Assembly: GCA_000002445.1 (NCBI GenBank) | Contig: CM000207.1 | Location: 1,184,001-1,248,000 of the forward strand | Direction: 5' to 3' | Source of the DNA: Trypanosoma brucei | Taxonomy: Eukaryota | DNA length: 64,000 bases | In this document: positions 11,597-64,000 of the stretch, one piece after another | Position numbering within the stretch: the stretch's first letter is position 1 | Layout: every line of letters starts with the position of its first letter | Notes under the pieces: model-generated | The model's input: only the letters and a program-made list of their open reading frames with translations | Databases searched by the model: none | Told to the model about the DNA's origin: nothing | Made by a program: the position numbers and the translations under genes

Positions 11597-11931
11597 ACCT
11601 TTTTCCAATATTCCTTTCACCTCCTATTGCACGGATGCTAATGATCCGCTACGTAGTACATACACGCTACTTCATCAACCAAAAAATAAAATAAAAGATA
11701 ACAAGCAAAAGAACGGAAAGGAGGTGAAAGTAACTGAAAAGGTGGTATTTGGGGATGTAAAGGGGAATAAAAACAAAGGCACAGGGCCGTAACCAACAGC
11801 CAACGGAGAAGCTGTCAAGGGGGGCGTGCAACTGAAAAAAAAATGTTACAAAAGAAAATAGAAATGATAAAGGGCACAGTATGACTCAGGGAAAAGGCCC
11901 CTCCAATAGGTGGAGGCAGCCCTTAAAGGTC

Positions 11932-12779: not shown

Positions 12780-12828
12780 CCAAAACGTTGCGATTATTAG
12801 AAATTTGACAAAACGTAGTATCCACAAC

Positions 12829-12999
12829 ATCGCACCGCTTTCTCACATAACGTTGCATGGCACTCGCCGATATTGCAATCGCATAGTTGATGACCCTGGT
12901 CTCATTCACATTCGCGTCACCGAGCCCCTCACGCATCCGCTGAACTTCCGAAGCAGTCACATTATCAAAGGGCATACCTTTTTCCAATATTCCTTTCAC
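12829..12999 (-). pseudogene. Truncated duplicate of the 5' end (first ~49 codons plus upstream flank) of the 9869-11596 gene. It is a gene fragment created by the tandem duplication.
   Basis: ORF 12760..12999 translates to the same N-terminus (MKGILEKGMPFDNVTASEVQRMREGLGDANVNETRVINYAIAISASAMQRYVRKRC) as the 9869..11620 ORF, then diverges at the breakpoint (…KRC-DVVDTTFC vs …KRC-EVVGFSS). Confidence 0.8.
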
Positions 13000-13310
13000 C
13001 TCCTATTGCACGGATGCTAATGATCCGCTACGTAGTACATACACGCTACTTCATCAACCAAAAAATAAAATAAAAGATAACAAGCAAAAGAACGGAAAGG
13101 AGGTGAAAGTAACTGAAAAGGTGGTATTTGGGGATGTAAAGGGGAATAAAAACAAAGGCACAGGGCCGTAACCAACAGCCAACGGAGAAGCTGTCAAGGG
13201 GGGCGTGCAACTGAAAAAAAAATGTTACAAAAGAAAATAGAAATGATAAAGGGCACAGTATGACTCAGGGAAAAGGCCCCTCCAATAGGTGGAGGCAGCC
13301 CTTAAAGGTC

Positions 13311-40795: not shown

Positions 40796-41692
40796 TCAAG
40801 AATAGTTTTGGTTGAGATGGCGGGCAAAGCGTGGTAACACAAATGCCGCCTTATGGACGTCCGAGTCGTAGTACTTCAGTTCACCCGCAAAAGGCATCGA
40901 CTCGACGGGACGCACGGGTTGGGTCACATCCACGCCAGCCACCTTGGAACATATGAGAGAACCAATGCTTCCGCATGGGTACGTAGGGGTGTAAATCATA
41001 GCGTACTTTACGGAGGCAAAACCCACCTTGTTTTTAATAAAGTCGGCCATCCCTTCAATTAGGTTGCGATTCAACCAAACAGACTCTCCTTGATTACAAC
41101 AGATGCCGCGTGGTTTCAGGATGCGCAGCACGTCCCGATAAAACTTCTCCCCAAACAACTCAGCTGCGGGGCCGTCAGGGTCTGTGGTGTCGATAATAAC
41201 CACGTCAAAACTTTCACTTGCCGCCTCCCTCACGAATGCAACGCCGTCCCCTACCCGCACATCAGCCCTTGGGTCAGAGAAACCGCTCGAAATCTGAGGA
41301 AAATATTTCTTGCTTGCCTCAATCACGTCACCATCAATATCAACGAGAACGCACCGCTTGACAGTGCCGTGGCGCAGAACTTCGCGCATGACACCACCAT
41401 CCCCACCCCCAATGATGAGGACATCCACGGGATCGGGATGAGCGCAGAGAGGGGTGTGGCTCAACATTTCGTGGTAAACAAACTCATCGAAGTCTGTAAG
41501 TTGGATGCAACCGTCAAGCGTCATGACGGTGCCCCACGGCCCTTTGGGATCGGTCTCGAAAATCGACAGGTGCTGGAACTTTGTTGGAGTATCGTGTAGA
41601 ACCTCTTCAACCTTAAAGGACATTGCTTGACCGGGCCACTGCCCATTTTCCTCACGAAACCATCCGTCAGCAAGAAGACCGGGTCCAGGCAT
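40796..41692 (-). CDS. SpdS: Spermidine synthase (aminopropyltransferase), 298 aa
   Basis: ATG at 41690-41692. 'VLIIGGGDGGVMREVLRHGTV' (SAM/dcSAM-binding), 'VVIIDTTDPDGPA' and 'QGESVWL' are canonical spermidine synthase motifs. It is clearly homologous to the trypanosomatid SpdS sequence I recall. Confidence 0.9.
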   Translation of the reverse strand: MPGPGLLADGWFREENGQWPGQAMSFKVEEVLHDTPTKFQHLSIFETDPKGPWGTVMTLDGCIQLTDFDEFVYHEMLSHTPLCAHPDPVDVLIIGGGDGGVMREVLRHGTVKRCVLVDIDGDVIEASKKYFPQISSGFSDPRADVRVGDGVAFVREAASESFDVVIIDTTDPDGPAAELFGEKFYRDVLRILKPRGICCNQGESVWLNRNLIEGMADFIKNKVGFASVKYAMIYTPTYPCGSIGSLICSKVAGVDVTQPVRPVESMPFAGELKYYDSDVHKAAFVLPRFARHLNQNYS

Positions 41693-44336: not shown

Positions 44337-46652
44337 TCACTCGCTCTTCTCCCTATCTCGTTTACGATTCACCTTTGGCTTCGCTGTGGGCGTAACCTCT
44401 CGTGGTAGGGGGAACTGCTGCGGGGACGTGGTCCGCACAGCGACGTACTTTCTGGTTCCCTTTGCAGTTGCCGCTGTATCAGCCCTTGCTTCTCTTTCCT
44501 GCAGCTTTGCCTTTTTATTTTGAAGTGAAGAAAAGCTTCCAGAAGCTGGCGTACCGATTACTCCTCCGGCTGTTAAGGCGTCCGCACTCACCTGACCACC
44601 ATCCGGCCGTCCTTGGGCCCTCCGCACCAACCCTGCTGAGCGACTGGTCATTGAGACACCTGAAGTGTCACCTTCTTGATATGTATACTTCCGTGCAGGA
44701 GTCCGACTTTTCGGGAGTTTGGGGAGACCAAACTCTCCAGCCTGCGTAGGGGGCGGAGACCAGCTGCTAGATAGCGCCCGATCGGAGCGATGCATTCCCT
44801 GGCGTTTCAATGTTTCGCACGACTCGGTGATCCATTCGCCGTCAGTATAGTTCAGAGCTGTGGGAGCAGAATGCACCTCGTCGTCTCCGTGTTTGACAGG
44901 AAGGGCTCTTCCATCCAATGAATGGCTGAAACCTGTGGCCTCCCTTTCCACATGGCAGGTTGAGGCCGCCAGTTGCACGTTGGTGATGTCATCCTGCAAA
45001 AAATTATTGTTCCCACGACCAGCAGAACCTGATTCCGCGGTTCGTGCGACCGGGAGGGGCTGGCGGCCACACCTAGGTATTTCTGGAAGCGGCGACGGAG
45101 ACAAAGAGGGCACGCGATGCTCCTCTTCCATGGTTGATTGAAGTTCATCACCCTCCTGTGGAGGGAATACCACAGTAGTTGGCGGTGACTGCGGTGTCAT
45201 CTCTTTTAACGCCATCTTCGAATGAATGGAATGACCTGAAGAAGCGGAAGATAGCGATTTTCTAGATGAATTATTTGCGATAACTACAGAAACTGAAGCA
45301 TCGCCACCACACACAGCTTCCTTGACGGCGGCTACTTCCTCTACTGCCGCGTTCGCCGCCGCACGAGATCCACAAAACCATGGTGTTCGATAGCGACGTA
45401 TCTTCTTCTGCTCCGGTTTCTGTGCTGGTACCTCTTCCGCCTCTGTGAAGTACGGGAGATAACTCGAAGAAGAGGGGTTGCCCAGGTCCCCTCCGCCACC
45501 AGAACGGAGGCCTTTCTCATCTAAGAAGCACTCCAGGTGGTCACTTGGAAGAACGGGGAGTGTCTCCACGTTGGGGCAGAAGTCCTCCCTATCCCGGTAG
45601 GCTTTAGTGGCCCGCACACTTGGAGCCGCTTCTTCTGGTTCGTATCCATACCCCTGTTCAACACTGTTAGAAGCTCCTTTGCACATAACGTCCTCCCGAG
45701 TCTGATTCGACGGTAAAACGTCCGACAACGCAACAAAATCGGAAACTTGAGGTTGAGGAGGGCAATCACCCCCAGCAAGAGAGCTTGTCACAGAACATCT
45801 GGCAATGTTATCGTTGCACTCATCAGCCTCGTCTTCACTTAAACTTAGGACCTTACTCCGTTGACTCCCACGCAAATCACCAAGTGACTCGAATATATTT
45901 GAAGGCGGAACGCACTTTCTCGGCTTTTCTAACTCGGTATCCCCTCCGCAAGACTGCACAAACACATCTTCAACTTCGGGTCTGTAAAGCGGATCTGGTG
46001 CCAACAAAACGCATTCCGCATCGCCCTCTGGGCTCACTTTCGGAGAATACAACGAAGTTAAATGTAGAGGTGCCTGGACTGTTGCTGTTGCACAAGAAGA
46101 CGAAGGAGACGCCTCGGGAACTGCTGTTCGATTATCGCGGAACACTTGTGTGGAGCGGCCTCGTTTCTTCTGCTGAGTGCCGGTTGAAGAAGAGACATCC
46201 ACATCCACAAGGCGATTTACTGATTCCATGTTGCATTCCTGCCACTCAACCGACGCACTGCCACTCTCGCTAGTTCGCTTGTGTGACGGTGGTAGTATTC
46301 CGCATGTTGCGAAGATTGCTCCGTGTTTCAAAACATTTGGCCCCTCAACACGCTGCTTAGCTGCCGATAGCTGGCCTCCCAAAGAAGATGCGTCACCGGG
46401 AGGGGACGACGGCCGGAGTAAAGTAGAAACACCACCACTTTTGTGTGGCGACATTGAAGTTTCCTCGTGCTGGCCGTTACACTCCTTCCTCTGTAAAATA
46501 TAAAGTCTCATTTTATCTGGTGTCGGAGACGCTGAAGTTACGCCATACAATCGTTCCCACATGTGAAAAGTGGCAGAAGAAAGAATTGCATCTTCAACGG
46601 TAACCTCTGAACCTATGAAATCTGCTATTGGACTAAGTTCACACAACTTCAT
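44337..46652 (-). CDS. Hypothetical 771-aa Ser/Pro-rich protein. The start is set at the first plausible ATG because the ORF-track N-terminal 57 codons look non-coding.
   Basis: The long minus ORF ends with TGA at 44337-44339. The upstream 57 codons (MCFHWCSCFFFLTFSV...) are low-complexity Phe/Cys and look like translated UTR. 'MKLCELSPIADFIGSEVTVEDA...' starts at 46650-46652. Confidence 0.5.
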   Translation of the reverse strand: MKLCELSPIADFIGSEVTVEDAILSSATFHMWERLYGVTSASPTPDKMRLYILQRKECNGQHEETSMSPHKSGGVSTLLRPSSPPGDASSLGGQLSAAKQRVEGPNVLKHGAIFATCGILPPSHKRTSESGSASVEWQECNMESVNRLVDVDVSSSTGTQQKKRGRSTQVFRDNRTAVPEASPSSSCATATVQAPLHLTSLYSPKVSPEGDAECVLLAPDPLYRPEVEDVFVQSCGGDTELEKPRKCVPPSNIFESLGDLRGSQRSKVLSLSEDEADECNDNIARCSVTSSLAGGDCPPQPQVSDFVALSDVLPSNQTREDVMCKGASNSVEQGYGYEPEEAAPSVRATKAYRDREDFCPNVETLPVLPSDHLECFLDEKGLRSGGGGDLGNPSSSSYLPYFTEAEEVPAQKPEQKKIRRYRTPWFCGSRAAANAAVEEVAAVKEAVCGGDASVSVVIANNSSRKSLSSASSGHSIHSKMALKEMTPQSPPTTVVFPPQEGDELQSTMEEEHRVPSLSPSPLPEIPRCGRQPLPVARTAESGSAGRGNNNFLQDDITNVQLAASTCHVEREATGFSHSLDGRALPVKHGDDEVHSAPTALNYTDGEWITESCETLKRQGMHRSDRALSSSWSPPPTQAGEFGLPKLPKSRTPARKYTYQEGDTSGVSMTSRSAGLVRRAQGRPDGGQVSADALTAGGVIGTPASGSFSSLQNKKAKLQEREARADTAATAKGTRKYVAVRTTSPQQFPLPREVTPTAKPKVNRKRDREKSE

Positions 46653-50133: not shown

Positions 50134-50736
50134 TTACTTCATCTCCGCATATTGAGGAGCTTGGCCATATCTGTACCACCAAACCAGGAGGGTGATGACA
50201 AAGGCAAAAAGTGTGCTGGCGAAAGTGGAATACCAAATAATCGCCATAAACTCCTCATCTGTACCGGGTCGAGAATTTTGGTGTGTAGCATTTTCCGTTA
50301 CACCGACGAGGTTAGTCGATTCACATACGAAAAGAACACGGGTCCATAGCTCTTGCATGTGTTTCTTGTAGTCATTACTCATCTTTTTGCTCGTCATGTA
50401 GCTCGTCAGGCGCCGTACTTCATACTCGTCTTTAGGAATAATGCTTCCCATATGATCCAACTCCACAGTATTCGTGATAGTTGCTGCGTAGCAACCCTTC
50501 TTAAAGGTCATCTTATCTTTCATATACGCCTTGACAACATCATTGAAACGAATTTCTGCGGCTGTACGAACCTTCAATCGGAAAACGTGACGACGAAGTG
50601 GGTAGTATACCTTATTGATCTCCTTGTAAACAAATTTCTTCGCAAGAGAGCTGGTGTAATTACATAAGGGGTTCGACTGACCCCCAAAGGTCGCCGTAGC
50701 ACCCCCGAGGGTCATGTTACCAAAGTTCATAGTCAT
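50134..50736 (-). CDS. Hypothetical 200-aa tail-anchored protein with a single C-terminal TM helix
   Basis: ATG at 50734-50736. The C-terminal 'MAIIWYSTFASTLFAFVITLLVWWY' is hydrophobic and followed by a short tail. No recognisable domain. Confidence 0.5.
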   Translation of the reverse strand: MTMNFGNMTLGGATATFGGQSNPLCNYTSSLAKKFVYKEINKVYYPLRRHVFRLKVRTAAEIRFNDVVKAYMKDKMTFKKGCYAATITNTVELDHMGSIIPKDEYEVRRLTSYMTSKKMSNDYKKHMQELWTRVLFVCESTNLVGVTENATHQNSRPGTDEEFMAIIWYSTFASTLFAFVITLLVWWYRYGQAPQYAEMK

Positions 50737-52770: not shown

Positions 52771-52850
52771 CCCTGGCGATGCCGGCCACCTCAACGTGGT
52801 GCCAGGGTCCAGTACCCCGTATCATCGGGGGGAGCCAAGAGCCAGCAGCG
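52771..52850 (+). promoter_or_regulatory. Pr77-like 5' hallmark of the ingi/L1Tc clade. It is reported to act as an internal promoter in L1Tc.
   Basis: Sequence 'ccctggcgatgccggccacctcaacgtggtgccagggtccagtaccccgtatcatcggggggagccaagagccagcag' at the element's 5' end. Its function is inferred from the literature on L1Tc/ingi and is not testable from sequence. Confidence 0.5.
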
Positions 52851-53009
52851 TTCCTTTCATGGGGAACACTGCTGTGCTCCGGCTACGGCATCATACAGCA
52901 CAGGGATCAGCAGCGTCTTGCTGGGACACCGTTTTTCATTTGTCGGTCCGTGGGCACGTCCAAGCGTGCCAGCTGCAGTATCATCCGCACTAAGATGCTG
53001 CTGTCCAGT

Positions 53010-53033
53010 GATGTGGAAGAGAATCCCCGCCCG
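53010..53033 (+). other. Degenerate 2A-like 'ribosome-skipping' peptide DVEENPRP. The canonical form is D(V/I)ExNPGP. The surrounding context is SIIRTKMLLSSDVEENPRP.
   Basis: Read directly in frame (gat gtg gaa gag aat ccc cgc ccg). L1Tc and T. brucei ingi are known to carry a functional N-terminal 2A sequence. I recall the ingi version as '...SSIIRTKMLVSGDVEENPGP'. Here the essential Gly is Arg (ggc->cgc). Confidence 0.75.
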
Positions 53034-53588
53034 TCGTTGCGCGGGATGCAGTGGAACTGCGCCGGGCTATCTCAAGGAAAGAGATTAGCACTCCACAAAA
53101 CCCTTGTTGATGAGCGGATCGCCTTTTGTCTGTTGAGCGAGACAAGGATGACGCCTGGAGAGGCGGCTTGCTTTAGTGTTGCTGGCTACCAACATCACTG
53201 AATAGCTCGTAACTGCAAAGGAGGTGGTGTATCAATACTAGTGAGGGAGGACCTACCAGTCGAGACCGGTATGGCCGTTGTTGGTCGCATTGAACAAGTG
53301 CATGCAACAATTCACCTTGCACGTGGAACGGCGCTGACTGTCACGTCGGCATACATCCCACCAAAACACACCTTCACGGCAACTGACCTAGATACGCTTC
53401 TGACAACTGACGGTGCCCAGCTCATCGGTGCAGACGCTAACGCACACGCGTTGGCATGGGATCGCGCGAGCCCACCAAATACCAGGGGTGAAACCCTCAC
53501 ACAGTGATGCATTGACAACCAGTTTCTGGTCTGCAACACTGGTGAGTGCACAAGGTACGCACGCCACCACGGGGAGTCCACCCCTGAT

Positions 53589-55361
53589 GTGACACTGTCA
53601 AGGAATTGCACAGTGTACACGTGGACATCGCTGTATTCTCCCGATAGCGATCACCATCACATATTTTTCGACGTTATCGTTGGAGACGACACAGATGCAC
53701 TGAGTTGCCCGCGGCTTCGAAAGCCCATGTACGCATGGCTAAGAGCTGACTGGAGGAATTTCCGTCTCAAGGTTGACGAGCTCTGCAGGAAAATTGGTAG
53801 AGAGAAGAACCTCAACAGCCTGGAACAGAAATTGAGCTCCGCCATCCGCATTGCGATGAAGGTCTCCGTCCCCCGTGGCTGCAGAGCAACGCCACCACAT
53901 TGGACACCTACACTCCCGAAACTCGATGAAGAGATCGCTGGATGCGGGCCCTCCCACCGAAGGGAAAAGTTGGTAGCCACCCGTAAGCAGATTCTGGACC
54001 GTACCACAAAGAAGAGATGGAGCACGCTATGCTCCAGACTTGCGGTGTCAGACCGCTGTAGTTGGCACATTGTCAAGAAGGTATATGCGCCACGACCACT
54101 AACCACAGCGGCGGTGCTGGTTGATAAGGCGGCCATCACGGACTACCGTCAAGCTGAGAGGTTCAGTAAACTGTACTCGTCCCGCGCAAGAAGGCACCCC
54201 GACTCACACCCACCGGCACCCATAAAGACGATAGCGAGTGAGTTTAGTCCCATCACGATGGCTGAACTACGGAGATCGATCAAACTGCTACCGAGTGGAT
54301 CCGCAGCCGGACCTGATTGCTTATACAACGAGGCACTGCAACATCTCGGCAGAACAGCGCTGAATGTTGTTCTGAGGCTATTCAATGAGAGGCTACGAAC
54401 GGGAGTCGTGCCGCCTGCATGGAAGACTGGTGTTATCATCCCCATCCTGAAGGCCGGAAAAAAGGCGGAGGACCTCGATTCTTACAGGCCTGTGACGCTC
54501 ACGAGCTGTCTCTGCAAAGTCATGGAGCGCATAATTGCCGCGAGGCTTAGAGACACTGTTGAGTCCCAGCTGACACCGCAGCAATCAGGCTTTCGCCCCG
54601 GATGCTCAACGCTCGAACAACTGCTGCACGTCCGCGCTGCCCTCTGCCGCCCCACGCACCAATATCGTACGGGTGCTGTATTCGTCGACTACGAGAAGGC
54701 ATTCGATACAGTAGACCACGACAAAATTGCGAGGGAAATGCACAGAATGAAGGTATCACCCCACATTGTGAAGTGGTGCGTATCATTTCTGAGTAACCGA
54801 ACTGGCAGAGTGAGATTCAAGGAGAAGCTTTTCAGCAGCAGAACATTTGAGCGAGGAATGCCACAAGGAACTGTCCTTGGCCCAATCATGTTCATTATTG
54901 TCATGAACTCATTGAGCCAACGCCTTGCAGAAGTGCCGTTACTGCAGCACGGATTCTTTGCAGACGACCTGACGCTACATGCGAGGCACACAGAGAGGGA
55001 TGTCATCAACCACACACTACAATGCGGCCTCAACGTGGTGTTACAGTGGTCAAAAGAGTACTTCATGTTTATCAATTGTAGCGAAAACGAAGTGCACACT
55101 CTTCGGGTGTATAGAGCGCCACCCCCTTACATTGCAACTGGATGGCGAAAGAATAGGAGCTGGCAGGACACCGAAGCTTCTAGGAGTAACATTCCAGTGT
55201 CTGCAGGGGATGGCAACACATGCGGCCGAAACGAGACGCAAGATGGACTTCAGACTACTGCAGATAGCAGCCATCTCAGCTTCTACATGGGGGCCAAGAC
55301 GACAAGTGCTGAGAGCTTTTTATCTAGCACTCGTACAGGCACACACCATGTATGGCATTGA
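53589..55361 (+). pseudogene. ingi reverse-transcriptase segment. It shares a frame with the endonuclease and ends by frameshift around 55070-55090.
   Basis: RT motifs are present ('PDCLYNEALQHLG', 'RPVTLTSCLCKVMERII', 'QSGFRPGCST', 'VFVDYEKAFDTVDH', 'FADDLTLH'). The protein continues in the +1 frame as ORF 54979..55920. Confidence 0.8.
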
Positions 55362-55920
55362 GGTATGGTACTGGGACGCTTCGGAACGAAGTCGCGACCT
55401 CCTTGCATCAGCACAACACAAAGCCAGTCGCATCATAGCCGGCATACCGCATGGGACGCGCAAAGAGGACTCTCTGCTGGAAGCAAACCTCCTGCCACTC
55501 AGGACGACCACTCTTGTGCGCAGCATGAAATTCATGCTGATGTGTGAGTCACGAGGCGGATGTTTGTGCCGCAGTGCTGAGGAAGTATACCACAGCAAAC
55601 ACCCAGTCAGAGCCCTACATTCCCGCATCATGCGGTCCTATCCCCACCTCCGCATTGAGCCACGCGAGCACCCACTAGAGACATCGACGCTCCGCCACAG
55701 CTGCCGACCGCTATTTCACACGCAGATAAAGCCTGTGTGCGCCGATGACCCTGACGATGTCAAAAGGGAGGCTTCCGAAAAGTGGATTGCACGGCATTTT
55801 GCACGGGGGGGAGGAAGGAGCCACCGCGGCGAGAGCACTACGAATTGTGGACTGATGGATCCGTGTCCCTCGGTGAGAAGTCCGGAGCAGCTGCCCTGCT
55901 CTATAGAAACAACACGCTGA
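54979..55920 (+). pseudogene. ingi RT C-terminal/'thumb' segment in a shifted frame. A second frameshift in a G-run (gcacgggggggaggaagg, ~55800-55816) returns to the original frame.
   Basis: The frame-1 ORF overlaps both neighbours. The continuity of the conserved protein is only recovered by two frameshifts. Confidence 0.7.
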
Positions 55921-57509
55921 TTTGCGCACCCAAAACTGGAGCAGGGGAACTTTCATGCAGTTACAGAGCGGAATGCGTAGTATTAGAGATAGGACTGCAA
56001 CGGCTGCTGAAATGGCTTCCGGCATACAGAAGCACACTGAGCAGGTTGTCCATCTTCTCTGACTCTCTGTCAATGTTAACAGCACTGCAGACAGGCCCCC
56101 TAGCCGTAACGGACCCAATTCTAAGACGACTATGGAGGCTTCTGCTTCAAGTTCAGAGAAGGAAGATGCGTATCCGACTGCAATTTGTGTTCGGCCATTG
56201 TGGTGTGAAACGGAATGAGGTTTGCGATGACATGGCGAAAAAGGCCGCAGATTTACCACAGTTGCGAGACACATGGATCCCCGACATCATTGCTTATGCG
56301 AAGCGAGTGCTTAGGTCGGAAGAAGTCCATGAGAACACTCATAGGTTTGGTATCACGGGCAACCACTTTCCAACAAAACATAAAGAAGAACTGACGAGGG
56401 AAGAAGAAACGGCACTGGCACGCTTTCGGGTTGGGTCTTCAAGACACTATGGATGGATGTTGCGAAAGATCAACCCGAGTGTGCCTCCACAGTGCCGATG
56501 GTGTAACCCGCAACATGCAGCGATAGGGCCAACAATACAAACAACCACACCTGTTGCGACACGCACTCTTCAGAGAACCTCCGAACCGACCAAATGTACG
56601 GAATGTGATGCCACATACCAATGCCGCTCGAGTGCTGTAACGCATATGGTAAACAAACATGGCTTTGTGCGAGCTGATGCCCTCCGGAGGATCAAATACG
56701 GCGATGCAACACCTGCAGTGGACATCCCCCCGGAGCCCCCTCCAGTGGTGGCGATCGTTCCTCTACCATCGAGCACACGAGTCCCGATGAGACCGCAGGT
56801 GCTTTATTGTACCCTCTGTGCCTCCAAATTCGCAGTGCCAGGCCGACTATTACACCACCTTAGAACAATACATGGCATAGGCAGCGGTAGTTGCCGCGTG
56901 AAAAGGGGGCGAGAAAACGAGGACTCAGTGCAAGGAGATGGTAGCGCTCCAGCAGCGCCAGCCCCTCAGGATACAAAGAAGCTGCCGTTTCAATGTGACC
57001 TGTGCGAGGCGAGCTTCGATACACGCTATTCCCTGTCACTACACAAGAAATTCAAACATAAGAGCATAGTGACGGAGGACGGTACCGTGGTGGTAGTGCA
57101 ATTCCCTCGTAACCGTGCCCGTGAGGGAAACGTTGACGTCCCGGGGAAGGGCGAGGTGCAGTGTGGTGTGTGCCAAAAAGTGCTCAGTTGCAGGGACTCC
57201 CTCATCCGACACTGTAAGGCTTTCCACAAAGGTGAGGGAGTCGAGCTTAAATGCAGCAAAAGCACAAAATTGTGTGCCACTGATTCCCCGCATACAAACA
57301 CATCCATGTTGGTGTGCCCGACATGCGGAAGGCAGTGTGCTAGCAAAACTGGCCTCACCCTACATCAAAAGAAGATGCACGGTATGAAGTTAGAGCGCGC
57401 TGTTACCAGCCAACGCGGCGACTGCGAAGAAACGTCGCTGCACTTGATGAGCTGCCCCGGTTTGAAGGAGTTACATGTCAGGTTTGCGGTAGAAGGTGTG
57501 TCTGTGTAG
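55782..57509 (+). pseudogene. ingi RNase H plus C2H2 zinc-finger (nucleic-acid chaperone) C-terminal segment
   Basis: There is an RNase H motif, followed by five C2H2 fingers (CTECDATYQCRSSAVTHMVNKHG; YCTLCASKFAVPGRLLHHLRTIHG; FQCDLCEASFDTRYSLSLHKKFKHKS; CGVCQKVLSCRDSLIRHCKAFHKG; CPTCGRQCASKTGLTLHQKKMHG). Confidence 0.8.
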
Positions 57510-58866
57510 GATTTATGTTTTTCTAAAAGGCTGGCACAGTTTCTCACTGCGGTTGAACGGAGCCGGCCGAAGGTGAAGCCCTCACCTAAGGTAACAGACA
57601 TACAACCCACTCTCCCTTCTGCAACTTCCCCCTTATTGCCGAGTGTGGAGCTAGCAGGAAAAGCACCGGACGCAGGAATAGTCCAGACACCCTCAGAGAC
57701 AGAGGGGGTATGCAGTCAACAAGCAACAAAAACAGAAAGAAAGGAAGAGAATAATAAACGAATAACAAAAATCAAAACAAAAGGATTGCTAATTGACATC
57801 TTTTGGAGAGTCTGGGGTGTGGGGCTTCTCGCCCCATCTGCTGTGTTCCGTTCAACTGCGGAGCTACAACAAAAATTATAGAGCGTGTGTTAGGCTGAAT
57901 AAAAAAGGGAGACTCTGCCACAGTCGCCAGACCGATAGCGTCTCAGGGCTCTACGGTGATGGCTGATGGCCGCGCCAGTGGGAGGAAACTTTCACGAAGG
58001 CACGAAGAAAATTCGAAAAAAAAAATTGGCGTTGCCGCAACGGCTGTGGGAACGCCCTCTCACCCGCGCTGGGCCCGTAGCTTCAAACGAGGGCGAAACC
58101 TGAAAGTGATGGTGGCGTTTTTAAGGTGCAGGGTCGCGGTCAGCAGCGCATGGAAGTACTGGCGCACCTCGGTTGGGCACACAAGTGCTGATAAATGAGC
58201 AGCGCACAGTTTTTACAAGACAGCAGACGTGGCTAGCACGCCACGTATGAGCGGAGGATCAAAGTTACTTCCTAACGAGTGTGGGCACAGATGCGATCCG
58301 TACAGGCGAGGGAGCGTGAGGGACAAACATGAGAAACATGTATTCAGGGACTGTTGGTAATGAAGCGGGAGGGCCCGGAAACAGTGGACAATCACACGGC
58401 TTATCAAAACCAGATGAGCGGGAGTGTGGTAATGATAACCGGAATGTCGGCCACCATCAATGAAGATGCGGGGTCGCCGGTGAATGAGTCATCTGACACC
58501 GTTTCCGCAACAAACAGGCGGTGTCCTGTGAAGGAAAGTTATCGGTGGCAACAAAGGGCGGTGCGCAAGCCGTAGCGGGTGCATGTTGTTGCGGAGTGAA
58601 CACGAAAGGAAGGGTTGCAAAAATGGAAAGTCGCGTTGAACAACACCGCACATCCTTTGGGAACCCGCGTACACGAAAATCATCTTCGATAAGGTAGGGC
58701 CCGTTGCGCATGGTTAGCAATGCCTCGAGGTCGTGAAACCGAACGCTTCTCTTCACCAAACCCAAACAACATTTAAGTAAACACTATCATCTGTATTTTA
58801 AGGAATCCTGTATACCTTGGTCCAGTGGTTAAGTAGAGTACTCGTCGCAGATAATACCGGCATGGA

Positions 58867-59235
58867 TCCCCGCTGGCGTAAAGTATTTAGCTTACACTAA
58901 GGATGGATCTGCCTCAACATGGCGCCAGGATCCAGTAACAGAAGAGAAATCAACTGGGAAACCAAATGTTCCATCCAAACGGCGGCCGCAACACCGGATA
59001 TGGTGCGACCACTCCGTGGGGAGAGAACCATTACTTAGTGTTCCACGGTCCAGTACCCTGCTCAGGTGGGGGAACCAAAATCCCTGATACAACTTCCGTC
59101 CGGGGAGGCGGATGGATATGGTAAACATGGTTCAGACGCAATGTGGGAGGGGTCGAATGGGCGTCAAATGGAGACCACCCTTCTAGATACGCGCACATAT
59201 GCGGTCACCCAGCCGTGGGTATCAATTCTCCAAAA
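58867..59235 (+). mobile_element. Short (~370 bp) A-tailed retroposon fragment with a Pr77-like 5' region (RIME/SIDER-like, truncated or rearranged), in the same orientation as the ingi copy.
   Basis: 'ccccgctggcg...ctcaacatggcgccaggatccagtaac' and again '...cacggtccagtaccctgctcaggtgggggaacc' mimic the first ~70 nt of the ingi 5' end (ctcaacgtggtgccagggtccagtaccccgtatcatcggggggagcc). It ends in a 12-A run at 59223-59234. Its 3' half does not resemble the ingi 3' end seen at 57510-58022. Confidence 0.5.
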
Positions 59236-60397
59236 AAAAAAACAGGGGGTTTTATTGGGTAGCAATGTCTGTATCCACCGTTGAGCCCCACACTACCATG
59301 TCCTCACGGCGTGGTGTGCGTAAATGAATTTCCTTCTTATTCTCTGGTGGACCGACTGCATGGCCCTGACAGTTGCGGGAGGAAAAAAGTCCTGTATAAG
59401 AGTAACCAAAAAACGAATCGACCCTCCAGTCTACGTCAGAGAATCGTCCTTACAAGTCAACTGAGGAACCTTTTTCCGTACCCTTAAAACATGCCTGCGA
59501 TAAACCCCTCACCGTCCACCACGCAGCACGTACACATTTGTTACCTGAGGTTGCGGTTGCTGAGCAGTTGTCTGGTGTGTGTTTTGATGCTGTTGTTGCG
59601 GCAACGTTTCATGTGCCAAAGAAAATTATGAAATATATCCAATAAGTGTTTCTGCAACGAATAAGTAAGGTTATGTGAAACTAAAACACATAAAAGGATC
59701 ACTGCTTTCCATAGTTCCTGCATGAGCAGAGAATTGTTGGCACATAACATCTACTAACACTAGCCATACTGACAGCAACTTATTCCTCCTGCCCTCCGCC
59801 CTTGCACACACACCTCACAGTAACCAGTAACACCTCACAACTATTTTAAACATTCGGCTTATTGTCTCAACAAAAGTCAGAGGGTTAGTGACTTTCCTCT
59901 GTCACAAGCGGGGTTATTGCGACGGTAAGTTATTCCATTTTATCCACACATATATCAAATACAAAAAGTAATAATTAAGTGATGTCGCGTAACTGTTTTA
60001 GTCATAATTCAATGTGGAGTGTTGCGACCTTCAATTTCTTTCGAAGTGCGAGTTGGAGGCCATAAGCTTCTTCTCCTTGTTGGTAGTTATGTGGGACATG
60101 TTAGTTGGACTCGGTCACCATAAGTTCTGTCGTCTAACAGATAACAACAACATTATTTCTAAAAATTGTTATATACATTCAAAGAGTGAAATAGAGTGCA
60201 TTTGGATAGAATAAATTAAGTCTCAAAGCAACAAAAAGATACTGTTGAATTTACTGCAAACACATTACACAAACACTTTCAATGAACAAACACATTATAC
60301 CATTAACACAATTAAATTCCAAATACTATAACACATGTATTCTGTTCCAAAAAGTTACAATAAGTATTATGGTAATCACATCATAAGGTTATCACGA

Positions 60398-61366
60398 TTA
60401 AAGAAAAAAGGAAAAAAATGAAATCACAAGTGCAAATAATTTTTCCACCATATCTACATTTCGGTTATAAGCATAAGCACCATCAAAGGGTTTCCTCCTC
60501 ATGTAAGATAACATTGGTAGCAACATTGTATCATCAAGAAGGCATTGCTCCCTCTGTGCTGCAGTAAGATTGAGCCATGAGTTTTCAAGATACATTTTGT
60601 CAAGTTCCGCCTTTACACTGGGAGTGCTGTAACATGTTTCGGCAGAGCAAACGGTGCAACTGCGTTTCTTCATTCCTTCCTCAAACATTTGCGTCATCGA
60701 ATTAAGATGTCTTTTCAGGTTGTAAAGAGAAGCATTTTTCATCCGCAGGATTTCTGTTGTGGAATTAATAATATGTTGGGTAATGCTGTCGTTGCACTGT
60801 TGCTTTGACTTGTCAATTTTTTTAATTTTCTCTTTGTTTGATGTTTGAAGGGTCGCAACTGTTTCAGTTGAATATGTTGCTTTTTTGCTGTTCTCGCTGC
60901 ATATTACTTCTTCTGCCTTTTTAATTATTATTTTTTTTGCTTGTATTTTTTCTTTCCATCGCTGGAGTTCAGCCTTCAAGTTCTTGACCTGTTGTTCATA
61001 GGGTTTTGTTTTTGTGATTACCGGTTTGTTGCACAAACCTCTCCCTTCCACTTCGTCTTGCAACAATTTGTGTTTTTGAACTAATTCGTCAAGGGTTTTC
61101 TCGTTACTGCACTTCCAAAGCTTAGGAACGTTGGAATAATCAATCAAATCACAGAAGACCCAGTTCTTCTCATGGCTGTACGATCCTCGAACTGTCAAAG
61201 AAAGCCTTATCATATGATCCGTGTAATCCTCCTCCATCCATTTTGTATAATCGCAAGAATCAGCGCTTGCCCATTCACTTAAGCGAGACATCAGTAGCAA
61301 AACTCCAAATAGCATTCGCATTTTCCTAACGTCCCTGCGGAAGATAACATGAAACAGAACATTCAT
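60398..61366 (-). CDS. Secreted or surface coiled-coil protein, paralogue A (322 aa; a likely signal peptide begins at the Met encoded at 61319-61321). It has a hydrophobic C-terminus, possibly a GPI-addition signal.
   Basis: ATG at 61364-61366 and an in-frame ATG at 61319-61321 (MRMLFGVLLLMSRLSEWASA). There are Cys-containing N-terminal motifs (DSCDY...WVFCD...KLWKCSNE), a long heptad-rich K/E/Q region and a C-terminal 'CTVCSAETCYSTPSVKAELDKMYLENSW' motif. The tail 'VEKLFALVISFFSFFL' is hydrophobic. Confidence 0.55.
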   Translation of the reverse strand: MNVLFHVIFRRDVRKMRMLFGVLLLMSRLSEWASADSCDYTKWMEEDYTDHMIRLSLTVRGSYSHEKNWVFCDLIDYSNVPKLWKCSNEKTLDELVQKHKLLQDEVEGRGLCNKPVITKTKPYEQQVKNLKAELQRWKEKIQAKKIIIKKAEEVICSENSKKATYSTETVATLQTSNKEKIKKIDKSKQQCNDSITQHIINSTTEILRMKNASLYNLKRHLNSMTQMFEEGMKKRSCTVCSAETCYSTPSVKAELDKMYLENSWLNLTAAQREQCLLDDTMLLPMLSYMRRKPFDGAYAYNRNVDMVEKLFALVISFFSFFL

Positions 61367-61595
61367 TTATTTTGCCCAAAACACACCTGCATAAGAGGGG
61401 CAATATTTTCATCTAAAGGACAAAACCAACTGTACCGATTCGCAAAATGATAATACCATGATAATTAACTAACATGTATGATATCCATAAAAATTCCATT
61501 ATTATTTCACATGATGGAAAGAAACATCTGCTTAAACTAACAGATTAATAAGTAAGAAAAGATACAAACATAGCATATTTTATTTCCATAGCTGT

Positions 61596-62453
61596 TTACA
61601 TGTTTTCATTATATTTTGAATTATTCCCTTCAGTATCCTCATGTGGCGCCCCGCATTTAACACCTGATTTTGTCCATCCATCTTTTCCATATAATTTATC
61701 CAAATTTTCCTTTATGTGCACATCATCCCAACAAGTCCCAGCGTCACATGCGGGACAATTATTATTTCCAAGTTTTTCCAGCTGTTGTTCCTTCAGTTCT
61801 ATTGCTTTCTTCACACTTTCGATTTCTTTGTCCATTCTTTCTAGTTCAAGGTCGTATTCCACTTGCTTTTGTAGCTTTTTTTTTTTGCACTCTGTTGCCT
61901 CTTTTTCCGAAAGTGTGTCCAGCCGTGCACTTTCGTTCGTGAGGTCCCGTATCTTACCATCCTCTTGTGACATCGTTTTCATTTCCTTTTGGCACTTCTT
62001 CTTTTCTTGAACCTCCCGTGTACTCCCTTCTTGAAGTCTCGCATGCTCCTCCTTCGCCTCCTCAATTTGCTGCTGCAGTTGCGCCACCTGCTCTTTAAGA
62101 AGCCTCACTGAACTATCTACCTTCGCTTTGCAAACAGTTACGTCACCCACTTCACCGCTCCAGTTGAATTTGCTGGTTATGAGGCTTGTCGGATTATTGT
62201 TACTTGAAGTACCACAAAACCACAACAATTCACTTCCACCTTCCCTCCTTCCGCTGTTGTTGCATAACATCCACTTGTAATTTCCGTTCGCAAATTCATC
62301 AGCGTTTACTATCACGGCATGAATATCCTCCTCTCTTCCGTCTACTTCATACCTTCTCAAGGTGCAACCTTCTGCCTTCCCTTCCCCCCTCCCACTAAAA
62401 AGCAATAGCGTCATCCCCGCCCACAAGAACATAGCTTTCCCACGCCCTTTCAT
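61596..62453 (-). CDS. Secreted coiled-coil protein, paralogue B (285 aa from the ATG), with the same architecture as paralogue A but no hydrophobic C-terminus
   Basis: Track M1 is a GTG and the first ATG is codon 6 (62451-62453; MKGRGKAMFLWAGMTLLLFSGRG signal-peptide-like). It has 'EGCTL...WMLCNN...LLWFCGTS', a coiled-coil segment (LLKEQVAQLQQQIEEAKEEHARLQEG...), and 'CPACDAGTCWDDVHIKENLDKLYGKDGW' matching paralogue A's CxxCxxxTC(W/Y)...ELDK(M/L)Y..(N/D)(S/G)W motif. Confidence 0.55.
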   Translation of the reverse strand: MKGRGKAMFLWAGMTLLLFSGRGEGKAEGCTLRRYEVDGREEDIHAVIVNADEFANGNYKWMLCNNSGRREGGSELLWFCGTSSNNNPTSLITSKFNWSGEVGDVTVCKAKVDSSVRLLKEQVAQLQQQIEEAKEEHARLQEGSTREVQEKKKCQKEMKTMSQEDGKIRDLTNESARLDTLSEKEATECKKKKLQKQVEYDLELERMDKEIESVKKAIELKEQQLEKLGNNNCPACDAGTCWDDVHIKENLDKLYGKDGWTKSGVKCGAPHEDTEGNNSKYNENM

Positions 62454-64000
62454 ATTGTAACTTTGCACTATATGCCTTTCAAAAACCTTGTTGTCCTTGT
62501 TAACAAATGCGTATATAAATCAAATGAAATAATGGCAACAGCGAGTGTTAATTATAGTGACGGCAGCTTCTTTTCTTACTCTGAAGTAGCACTGAATTTA
62601 TTTCTCCATTGACACACGGCACAATGGCAGGACACAAATAAAGCTGAAAGTAAAATTTAACAAAAATAATATGTGATCCAAATACCAAACGGGTGTGGCA
62701 CCATGCATATCCAAGTGCAAACCTTTCACAGAAGATATACACGAAATAAATGAACACACATTTTCTGATCATCACACGCATATGCATATCCTACATTAAT
62801 TTCAGTTAACAGTTTTTCTCCTTAGCGATCCCTACTTCATCCCCGCATGTCTCACATTTATGTTCCTCATAACCTACAACACATATCAGATGCGCTGCCA
62901 CTTCCATCCTACCACCACAAACTCACATCAAATCCCCTCCTTTTTCCCCTCCCTCTGCATAAAGTTGCAATTCAACAAATGCAGCAGCATCACAATTCTG
63001 GAGATTCCGGTAATGCGATCACCCTGAAGAACAATTAATATTAACGGGCTGCATCTCTCACTACAATTCCACATAACGACACACCCCATGAAATATGAGA
63101 ACTTTTGGTGACATTATATCGTTTGGCATTTCCTACCAACATTCAAAAGGATTTGCCACACATCACAATTAGTTGCTGTATATCGTAAAACACCGTGAAA
63201 TAGTGTAGCAGTACGAGAAAAGGGGAGTCTAGTCCCTCTCCCGTAACTTCATCATTTCAATAAATGCTAACAGTATTCACGACCCAATACAAAAGACAAG
63301 GAACAACAACATATGGGAGATTTTACAGAATCCCACTTCTCTGCATCACAGCATCACCCTCGATGGCTCCTACACCTCGAGTTGAAGTAGACATGATAAT
63401 TCATACAGGGGTCGAACGGAAAGATAACATATATATATGTATATACATAACATATGATACGTAATACGTAATACATATTCCAGCACTTTTGTTGCTATCC
63501 ACAGAGATTTGACATGTTGGGAAACAAAATATACAGAATCAACATTACTCCAATTGCATCAGCCTCACAACACATTCGAGCGAGGGAATTGTGTAGAACT
63601 CAAGTACTGGAAATGTGAGATGCCATAAACATGTAACGATTAAACTTGAAAACAAATGCAATCTGGAAGTAAGTGTAACTAATGTATGGAATGACTGGAA
63701 TTGTTGGAAATACAGAATTTAATATAACTAAAAATAATACGTGTATTTTCATGCCACACGGAATAAAAAATGTGATAGAATACAACAACAGTAACCACAG
63801 TGGCTGAAATTCAAATAACACAGTTAAGTCACAGTTGCAGCATAAACACTTCTGGAAAGACTCCATAAAGGGTAAGAAAACTAATCATATTTCAAAGACT
63901 CAATTAGGCGTGGAAGAGAAACGGCAACTGGTACAAAATTAATGTAACTGCAGGAACATAGTGACACCAAGTGGCCATAAACTCAAGCGCCTGATGTGAA

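What the first reader, a model, noticed from the sequence alone, without database searches (positions are those of the whole stretch)
52771..58022. Near-complete ingi-type retrotransposon whose N-terminal 2A skipping peptide has lost the essential glycine (DVEENPRP)
The element is intact in length and domain order (Pr77 – 2A – APE – RT – RNase H – C2H2). Its 2A-like motif at 53010-53033, however, reads NPRP instead of NPGP. In every characterised 2A, including the L1Tc 2A, the penultimate Gly is required for co-translational 'cleavage'. This would therefore be a natural loss-of-function variant of a retrotransposon 2A, seen together with other inactivating lesions. The flanking context 'SIIRTKML' matches what I remember of the T. 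brucei ingi 2A, which is also the basis for the species call.
Basis: partly seen in the sequence, partly recalled or inferred. Interest (0 to 1): 0.6.

Follow-up and report, generated by a model that had tools for sequence, protein, structure and literature searches.

The report
Dead ingi retrotransposon, decayed 2A peptide
This is an ordinary, full-length but mutationally dead copy of the well-known Trypanosoma brucei ingi retrotransposon, and the NPGP-to-NPRP change in its 2A "ribosome-skipping" peptide is one of about 126 base changes in a copy that also carries three stop codons and three frameshifts.

Summary
Window 52771-58025 (+) is a complete-length T. brucei ingi (5.25 kb). It has the 79-bp 5' signature, an ATG at 52779, APE, RT, RNase H and C2H2 domains, and an A-run at the 3' end. 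It is 95-96% identical to eight ingi copies fetched from other T. brucei genomes. Its 2A reads CSIIRTKMLLSSDVEENPRP; the family form, including an intact 1656-aa ingi protein, is SSIIRTKMLLSGDVEENPGP.

It missed a second disabling change, Gly77Ser (GGT>AGT, 53007), at the position equivalent to FMDV Gly11.

The copy is a pseudogene. It has stops at codons 141, 243 and 1576, and frameshifts at 55077 (+1), 55813-4 (+2) and about 57635 (-1). The first stop lies only 56 codons after the 2A. The 2A lesions therefore have no functional consequence and look like neutral decay: divergence from consensus is 2.4%, typical for the family, and substitutions do not cluster significantly at the 2A.

Among 18 readable T. 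brucei-group copies, 15 are NPGP, one is NTGP and two are NPRP. The second NPRP is a non-orthologous T. b. equiperdum copy with the same CGC codon, so the allele is probably shared rather than private.

Known element, known phenomenon, low interest.

The parts
52771..58025 (+). Full-length degenerate ingi (Tbingi) non-LTR retrotransposon, 5255 bp including the A-run
   Evidence: It aligns end to end with four full ingi copies (L001, L004, L005, L008) at 95.5-95.8% identity. It is 97.6% identical to their consensus and is the only copy in the window.
52771..52849 (+). 79-bp 5' signature (Pr77 hallmark) of trypanosomatid retroposons
   Evidence: One substitution (52832) against the consensus of 8 copies. 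The identity of the first 77-79 nt of ingi with Pr77 comes from the literature (PMC1874656, PMC2323293). No Rfam ribozyme family reached E<=1.
52779..52781 (+). Start codon of the ingi ORF (MPATSTWCQG...)
   Evidence: It aligns with Met1 of the intact 1656-aa ingi protein P0156.
52974..53033 (+). 2A-like peptide, codons 66-85: CSIIRTKMLLSSDVEENPRP (consensus SSIIRTKMLLSGDVEENPGP)
53007..53009 (+). Codon 77, GGT>AGT, Gly>Ser. Equivalent to FMDV 2A Gly11. Private to this copy.
   Evidence: All tested substitutions of Gly11 inactivate FMDV 2A (PMC3326317).
53028..53030 (+). Codon 84, GGC>CGC, Gly>Arg (NPGP>NPRP). Equivalent to FMDV 2A Gly18. Shared with copy L008.
   Evidence: PMC12338488 and PMC5733566 for the requirement of this Gly.
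53046..53663 (+). AP-endonuclease domain (Exo_endo_phos / Exo_endo_phos_2, aa 90-295), interrupted by two stops
   Evidence: E 8.6e-12 and 7.9e-6.
53199..53201 (+). In-frame stop, codon 141 (GGA>TGA), private
53505..53507 (+). In-frame stop, codon 243 (TGG>TGA), private
54465..55191 (+). Reverse transcriptase domain (RVT_1, aa 563-804), split by the +1 frameshift
   Evidence: E 2.3e-44.
55077..55077 (+). +1 frameshift inside RT. Intact copies read MSVNVAKTKCTLFG. Shared with L002, L004 and L005; absent from L001, L008, P0156 and P0159.
55813..55814 (+). +2 (GA) insertion that returns to the original frame; private
55836..56249 (+). RNase H domain
   Evidence: E 2.2e-8.
56988..57380 (+). C2H2 zinc-finger region (fingers at 56988-57059 and 57312-57380, among others)
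57507..57509 (+). In-frame stop, codon 1576 (CAG>TAG)
   Evidence: compared with P0156.
57635..57635 (+). -1 frameshift near the C-terminus (SATSPL | IAECG junction)
58016..58025 (+). 3' A-run (10 A)

Best explanation
The feature is a full-length but non-functional (pseudogene) copy of the T. brucei ingi LINE-like retrotransposon. It lies antisense in an intergenic stretch of a housekeeping gene array. In functional ingi, the ORF opens with an 85-codon leader ending in the 2A peptide SSIIRTKMLLSGDVEENPG|P. During translation this peptide makes the ribosome skip the Gly-Pro bond, releasing the leader from the APE-RT-RNase H-zinc-finger polyprotein. In this copy the 2A carries two changes at positions where other 2As tolerate no substitution (Gly77Ser = FMDV G11; Gly84Arg = FMDV G18), so skipping is predicted to be abolished. 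The loss has no consequence for the element, because the ORF is closed by a stop 56 codons later and is further broken by two more stops and three frameshifts. The 2A changes are best read as part of ordinary, essentially neutral decay of a dead copy. Gly77Ser is private to this copy. The Gly84Arg allele (CGC) is also present in one other, non-orthologous ingi copy. It was therefore more likely inherited from a source element or spread by gene conversion than created here. Shown: identity, anatomy, lesions, consensus, allele counts. Inferred: loss of skipping, neutrality, origin of the allele.
For: Identity and anatomy: 95.5-95.8% nucleotide identity over 5.26 kb to four full ingi copies, and 97.6% to their consensus. 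The frame-repaired translation is 1657 aa, 94.6% identical to the intact 1656-aa ingi protein P0156, with the same Pfam architecture. The literature gives 5.25 kb and a 1,657-aa ORF (PMC3447711).

Lesions: stops at codons 141, 243 and 1576; frameshifts at 55077, 55813-4 and about 57635.

The 2A: 15 of 18 T. brucei-group copies read NPGP, 1 reads NTGP and 2 read NPRP. All four homologues from other trypanosomes read NPGP.

Functional requirement: PG|P is described as absolutely required (PMC12338488). No variant at P17, G18 or P19 was recovered from fully degenerate FMDV libraries (PMC5733566). All Gly11 substitutions inactivate FMDV 2A (PMC3326317). The ingi 2A was reported active (PMC3708506).

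Decay: divergence of 2.4% is within the range of the other copies, 1.9-2.7% for the five that cover 4.3 kb or more. The private changes comprise 39 missense, 2 nonsense and 25 synonymous, close to the random expectation of 18 synonymous. The seven substitutions in codons 58-85 are not an unusual cluster: the densest 84-nt stretch elsewhere holds 8, and the random expected maximum is about 7.

Shared allele: L008 has the identical CGC codon at a non-orthologous locus. Every pair of copies shares 3-13 exclusive variants against about 0.4 expected by chance, and shared variants are enriched for synonymous changes (31 of 47 against 14.5 expected). This points to shared ancestry or conversion rather than recurrence.
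Against: Loss of skipping has not been measured for this peptide or in trypanosome ribosomes. All mutagenesis cited is on viral 2As in yeast, reticulocyte lysate or mammalian systems. The allele census is small (18 copies). It comes from other T. brucei subspecies and partly from annotated ORFs, not from the window's own genome. Private substitutions show a slight excess of synonymous changes (25 against 18.2 +/- 3.5, P about 0.04), so some of them predate insertion. No target-site duplication was found, so the insertion history is unclear. Whether this copy is transcribed or translated is unknown.
Confidence: 0.92

Rival explanations
1. Gly84Arg arose independently in this copy after insertion, and its presence in L008 is a coincidental recurrent mutation.
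For: The window and L008 are not especially close: 95.8% identity, the same as any other pair. They share no other variant within 800 nt of 53028. They differ at the 55077 frameshift haplotype and at the upstream TA insertion. Only 2 of 18 copies carry the allele.
Against: The chance that another of about 16 copies has the same G>C transversion at the same base is roughly 5% (about 2.4% divergence, one of three bases; inference). Exclusive pairwise sharing is about ten times the chance expectation for all pairs, and it is enriched for synonymous sites, which recurrent mutation in dead copies does not predict.
Confidence: 0.25
2. The NPRP/SDVE peptide still has a function, such as residual skipping, ribosome stalling or a deliberately fused leader, and this copy or its lineage is active.
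For: Nothing direct. A 2026 preprint reports 2A-like peptides that reduce protein output instead of skipping (PMC13405545). The allele occurs in two copies.
Against: This copy has 3 stops and 3 frameshifts. L008 has a frameshifting TA insertion just upstream of the 2A and other indels. Both long ingi proteins in the sample, the intact P0156 (1656 aa) and the 1481-aa P0159, read NPGP. G18 and G11 substitutions inactivate every 2A tested (PMC5733566, PMC3326317, PMC12338488).
Confidence: 0.02
3. The G>C at 53028, and/or the other lesions, are sequencing or assembly errors in the window.
For: Repeats are error-prone in assemblies. The source assembly could not be identified.
Against: The same substitution is present in an independent assembly (L008, GCA_003543875.1). 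The copy differs from consensus at 126 sites with a normal transition/transversion spectrum. Other copies show comparable lesion loads.
Confidence: 0.03
4. The element is not ingi proper but a DIRE (an ancient degenerate ingi-related element) or an element of another ingi subclade.
For: It is degenerate, in the sense that its ORF is broken.
Against: It is only 2.4% diverged from the ingi consensus and is full length. It is 94.6% identical at the protein level to an intact ingi. Homologues from T. grayi, T. theileri and T. conorhini are only 48-66% identical.
Confidence: 0.01

Closest known systems
Tbingi (ingi) non-LTR retrotransposon of Trypanosoma brucei (Kimmel et al. 1987; Bringaud et al.; described in PMC3447711, PMC2323293)
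   Same: Length of 5.25 kb, the 79-bp 5' signature, the 1657-codon APE-RT-RNase H-C2H2 reading frame, the A-rich tail, GC of about 53% against about 40% in the flanks, and 95-96% nucleotide identity to other copies.
   Different: The ORF is broken by 3 stops and 3 frameshifts, the 2A carries two disabling substitutions, and no 12-bp target-site duplication is detectable.
2A 'ribosome-skipping' peptides of ingi and L1Tc (Heras et al. 2006, cited in PMC3708506)
   Same: Same position (codons 66-85, immediately before the APE domain) and 17 of 20 residues identical to the ingi 2A, including DVEENP and the final Pro.
   Different: Gly at -8 is Ser and the Gly of NPG|P is Arg. Both positions are intolerant to change in tested 2As, so skipping is predicted to be lost.
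Naturally inactive 2A-like sequences in non-LTR retrotransposons of animals (Odon et al. 2013, PMC3708506)
   Same: Natural motif substitutions or poor upstream context in retrotransposon 2As that abolish or reduce recoding.
   Different: Those were tested in vitro and mostly affect the Glu or Asp positions or the upstream context. Here the Gly of PG|P itself is replaced, nothing has been tested, and the host copy is a pseudogene.
RIME (0.5-kb internally deleted ingi, mobilised in trans)
   Same: Shares the first ~250 nt and the 3' end of ingi. The RIME-type ORFs P0007 and P0008 break off inside the 2A after GDVE/GDVD. RIME shows that ingi-family RNAs without a functional ORF are still propagated.
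   Different: The window element retains the whole 4.7-kb coding core.

Membership tests
ingi (Tbingi) retrotransposon | About 5.25 kb in length, with high nucleotide identity to bona fide ingi copies along the whole length | tested here: met
   52771-58025 aligns end to end at 95.5-95.8% identity with L001, L004, L005 and L008.
ingi (Tbingi) retrotransposon | 79-bp signature / Pr77 hallmark at the exact 5' end | tested here: met
   78 of 79 bases identical to the consensus of 8 copies, all starting CCCTGGCG.
ingi (Tbingi) retrotransposon | Coding capacity for an APE - RT - RNase H - C2H2 polyprotein of about 1657 aa | tested here: met
   The frame-repaired translation is 1657 aa, with the same Pfam domains as the intact P0156.
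ingi (Tbingi) retrotransposon | Single uninterrupted ORF (potentially autonomous copy) | tested here: not met
   3 in-frame stops and 3 frameshifts. It is a member of the family but a dead copy.
ingi (Tbingi) retrotransposon | A-rich 3' tail | tested here: met
   A10 at 58016-58025.
ingi (Tbingi) retrotransposon | 12-bp target-site duplication flanking the element | tested here: not met
   No shared k-mer of 6 nt or more in register between 30 nt upstream and 60 nt downstream. The same holds for the four comparison copies. Only a T-rich motif about 9-13 nt upstream is common to them.
2A / StopGo recoding peptide (GD(V/I)ExNPG|P class) | C-terminal NPG|P | tested here: not met
   It reads NPRP (CGC at 53028-53030).
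2A / StopGo recoding peptide (GD(V/I)ExNPG|P class) | Gly at position -8 (GDxE) | tested here: not met
   It reads SDVE (AGT at 53007-53009).
2A / StopGo recoding peptide (GD(V/I)ExNPG|P class) | D(V/I)ExNP core and a suitable upstream tract | tested here: met
   DVEENP is intact. The upstream tract SIIRTKMLLS is identical to the ingi 2A apart from Ser66Cys.
2A / StopGo recoding peptide (GD(V/I)ExNPG|P class) | Location near the N-terminus of the long ORF, just before the APE domain | tested here: met
   Codons 66-85 of the ORF; the APE domain starts at aa 90. PMC3708506 gives the position as about 40-80 aa from the N-terminus.
2A / StopGo recoding peptide (GD(V/I)ExNPG|P class) | Co-translational skipping activity | not testable with these tools
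   This needs in vitro translation or a cellular reporter. Loss is predicted from PMC5733566, PMC3326317 and PMC12338488.
[quoted passage not shown] | High divergence, a vestigial and heavily mutated coding region | tested here: not met
   Only 2.4% diverged from the ingi consensus and 94.6% protein identity to an intact ingi.

The most novel reading that the evidence does not exclude
The NPRP (CGC) allele is identical by descent in at least two dispersed ingi copies. An ingi RNA with a dead 2A was therefore copied and inserted more than once. This would parallel the +1 RT frameshift at 55077, which is carried by 4 of 6 full copies. It would be natural evidence that ingi retrotransposition does not need 2A skipping, or any intact ORF, in cis: defective full-length ingi would be mobilised in trans like RIME.
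Probability: 0.3. Interest if true: 0.25.

Novelty: already known. Interest (0 to 1): 0.1.

Why it matters
It matters little. Ingi, its 2A peptide, and the fact that most genomic ingi copies are mutated are all established. The useful outcome is negative: the NPRP variant is not a distinctive natural experiment on 2A function, because the copy is a pseudogene and its 2A carries a second disabling change. Two minor points could be pursued with complete T. brucei genomes. First, the same CGC allele occurs in a second dispersed copy. Second, an RT frameshift is shared by most sampled copies. Both hint at trans-mobilisation of defective full-length ingi or gene conversion among copies, and a full census would settle it cheaply.

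Tried and rejected
1. Source assembly and orthologous loci. I tried to find them through exact-protein look-ups of four window ORFs: the 575-aa ingi ORF, the 200-aa ORF at 50134-50736, the 771-aa ORF at 44337-46652 and the 322-aa ORF at 60398-61366. None is on record, so the age of the insertion and of the allele could not be dated by orthology.

2. Exact-pattern scan of JGI metagenome contigs for the 2A coding motif: no hits, so it could not enlarge the census.

3. Rfam scan of the element for the HDV-like ribozyme reported in Pr77: nothing at E<=1 except a chance CrcZ match.

4. Target-site duplication search: none found for the window or for four other copies.

5. Other ingi, RIME or DIRE copies in the window. 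By blastn and tblastn only this one ingi is present; a SIDER2-like relic turned up instead.

6. Excess of substitutions at the 2A. Codons 58-85 hold seven substitutions, but a scan statistic shows this is not unusual, so I rejected targeted or positive selection.

7. Special kinship of the window copy and L008. Rejected: they share 6 exclusive variants, which is average for any pair.

8. Heras et al. 2006 and Bringaud et al. 2009 are not held in the library, so published per-copy 2A variants and counts of intact ingi could not be checked.

9. A literature search for DVEENPRP or NPRP in this context found nothing relevant.
Full report
**Observation.** The sequence at 53010-53033 reads GAT GTG GAA GAG AAT CCC CGC CCG, i.e. 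DVEENPRP. A degenerate search for this motif finds it once in the window, against 0.01 expected by chance. It lies in the frame that opens with the ATG at 52779, eight bases into the element, so the final Pro is codon 85 of the ORF. The 5' boundary at 52771 is exact: all eight related copies fetched from other genomes begin with the same CCCTGGCG. The element ends in a 10-A run at 58016-58025, so the reported end of 58022 falls inside the tail.

**What it is.** The N-terminal ORF fragment hits only trypanosome proteins. T. brucei subspecies match at 88-97% identity; T. grayi, T. theileri and T. conorhini 'ingi' proteins match at 48-66%. I fetched the DNA around eight T. brucei gambiense and T. 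b. equiperdum hits. Four of them (L001, L004, L005, L008) carry full-length elements that align with 52771-58027 at 95.5-95.8% identity, and four carry partial ones. The flanks do not match, so none of these loci is orthologous to the window. The window holds only this one copy.

All copies are about equally distant from each other (95.1-96.0%). The five that cover 4.3 kb or more are 97.3-98.1% identical to their consensus, and the window copy is 97.6%. Published median divergence for the related TbRIME is 4% (PMC3820030). The copy is therefore a typical family member, not an ancient relic.

The P0016 protein cluster contains an intact 1656-aa ingi protein, P0156 (RHW74236.1). tblastn of P0156 against the element gives three collinear blocks in alternating frames. 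Stitching the blocks gives a 1657-aa conceptual protein that is 94.6% identical to P0156. Its Pfam architecture is the same as P0156's: Exo_endo_phos at aa 90-292, RVT_1 at 563-804, RNase_H at 1019-1156, plus C2H2 fingers. This agrees with the published description: 5.25 kb, one ORF of 4,971 bp, 1,657 aa (PMC3447711). GC is 51-54% inside the element and about 40% in the wider flanks, matching the published 52.3% for ingi (PMC2323293).

**Lesions.** Relative to the intact protein and the DNA consensus, the copy has:
- Stop at codon 141 (GGA>TGA, 53199).
- Stop at codon 243 (TGG>TGA, 53505-7).
- Stop at codon 1576 (CAG>TAG, 57507).
- A +1 frameshift at 55077 inside RT; intact copies read MSVNVAKTKCTLFG.
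- A +2 insertion at 55813-4.
- A -1 frameshift at about 57635.

The 55077 frameshift is not private. L002, L004 and L005 have it; L001, L008, P0156 and P0159 do not.

**The 2A.** The consensus of the other copies and of the intact protein is SSIIRTKMLLSGDVEENPGP. The window reads CSIIRTKMLLSSDVEENPRP. There is also Gly77Ser (GGT>AGT at 53007), at the Gly of GDVE, which is equivalent to FMDV Gly11. Five further missense changes lie in codons 58-66.

- The PG|P residues are described as absolutely required (PMC12338488).
- Fully degenerate libraries yielded no viable FMDV with any alternative at P17, G18 or P19 (PMC5733566).
- All substitutions tested at Gly11 inactivated FMDV 2A (PMC3326317).
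- The ingi 2A was reported active in the GFP-2A-GUS assay (PMC3708506).

The peptide is therefore predicted to be doubly dead. This is an inference; no assay exists for this variant.

**How often NPRP occurs.** I could read the motif in 18 distinct T. brucei-group copies: 9 at DNA level including the window, and 9 more as proteins. Fifteen are NPGP, including the intact P0156 and the 1481-aa P0159. One is KNTGP (L005/P0012). Two are NPRP: the window and L008, a T. b. equiperdum copy on CM010675.1, which has the identical CGC codon. P0143 carries a different motif change (GDAEENPGP). Homologues in T. grayi, T. theileri and T. conorhini all keep NPGP. The consensus is therefore clearly NPGP. Motif-damaging variants occur in a minority of copies, and NPRP is not unique to this locus.

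**Private decay or inherited allele?** Of the window's 126 substitutions against consensus, 77 are private and 49 are shared with at least one other copy.
- Private changes in coding sequence comprise 39 missense, 2 nonsense and 25 synonymous. A matched random model expects 18.2 +/- 3.5 synonymous, so this is near-neutral with a slight synonymous excess.
- Shared changes are strongly enriched for synonymous sites (31 of 47 against 14.5 expected, P<0.0005), as expected if they arose in source lineages under selection.

Among six long copies, every one of the 15 pairs shares 3-13 exclusive variants; the window and L008 share 6, including 53028. I estimate about 0.4 per pair from independent hits. 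The pattern is not tree-like. This points to several source lineages plus recombination or gene conversion. It makes shared origin of the CGC allele more likely than coincidence; I put it at roughly 70-75%. The window and L008 show no special overall kinship, though, and share no other variant within 800 nt of 53028, so recurrence is not excluded. Gly77Ser is private. The seven substitutions in codons 58-85 are not a significant cluster: the densest 84-nt stretch elsewhere holds 8, and the random expected maximum is about 7.

**Mechanistic reading.** In an intact ingi, translation from the ATG inside the 5' signature produces an 84-residue leader. The 2A releases this leader co-translationally from the APE-RT-RNase H-zinc-finger protein (established for ingi and L1Tc; PMC3708506). 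If this copy were translated at all, it would yield a 140-residue product with no skipping, ending at the TGA at 53199. The 2A changes have no selective meaning in this copy.

**Context.** The element lies on the + strand, between minus-strand genes. Spermidine synthase is at 40796-41692, a DENN-domain protein at 37700-40471, other ORFs extend up to 46823, and two signal-peptide ORFs lie at 60398-62468. It is therefore antisense to the surrounding transcription unit in a chromosome-core region. No target-site duplication is detectable, here or at the four comparison copies.

**Comparison and verdict.** This is a member of the known ingi family. Every family feature tested is met except the intact ORF and the target-site duplication. 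Its 2A fails two defining motif positions of the 2A class. Natural inactive 2A-like variants in non-LTR elements are already documented (PMC3708506). I rate it as already known and of low interest. The only reading with some novelty is that 2A-dead, and also frameshifted, full-length ingi RNAs were propagated in trans.

Noticed in passing
window 58893-59243 (+): Two tandem, degenerate copies of the trypanosomatid retroposon 79-bp signature / Pr77 lie at about 58893-58975 and 59012-59095. Their cores are CCTCAACATGGCGCCAGGATCCAGTA and GGTCCAGTACCC...GGGGGAACCAAA. An A-run follows at 59233-59243. Two tandem signatures are the described hallmark of TbSIDER2 (PMC2323293, PMC4035085), so a short SIDER2-like relic appears to lie 0.87 kb downstream of the ingi on the same strand. 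The flank at 58000-58999 is also GC-rich.
   Followed up: partly
window 55077; L002, L004, L005 against L001, L008, P0156, P0159: A +1 frameshift inside the RT domain is shared by 4 of 6 long ingi copies from different loci and genomes. Intact proteins read MSVNVAKTKCTLFG. This suggests that a frameshifted ingi lineage has been propagated or homogenised.
   Followed up: partly
protein P0141 (XP_018644078.1, 'Schistosoma mansoni Smp_186480'): A protein annotated in Schistosoma mansoni, on a 13-kb contig, clusters at >=90% identity with T. brucei ingi APE fragments. It even begins with the out-of-frame translation of the ingi 2A region (MWKRIPARRCAG...). This is probably T. brucei contamination of that assembly.
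   Followed up: no
window 60398-61366 (-) and 61596-62468 (-): Two adjacent ORFs (322 and 290 aa) have N-terminal signal-peptide-like segments and Lys/Glu-rich central regions. They are distant paralogues (22% identity, E 3e-7) and have no Pfam match.
   Followed up: partly
window 11445-11744 and 12824-13123: A 300-nt direct repeat at 99% identity, spaced 1379 nt apart, near the ORF at 9869-11620.
   Followed up: no
L001 9317-9992 (-) abutting 9993 (+): In the T. b. equiperdum chromosome 8 locus, an inverted 3' ingi fragment (92.8% identity to window 57342-58011) directly abuts the 5' end of the full-length ingi, head to head.
   Followed up: no
L003 and L008, alignment position equivalent to window 52978: A 2-nt TA insertion just upstream of the 2A (SSIIRT > QYIIRT, shifting the frame) is shared by two copies from different subspecies. 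One of them has NPGP and the other NPRP. This is another example of the mosaic sharing of variants among ingi copies.
   Followed up: partly
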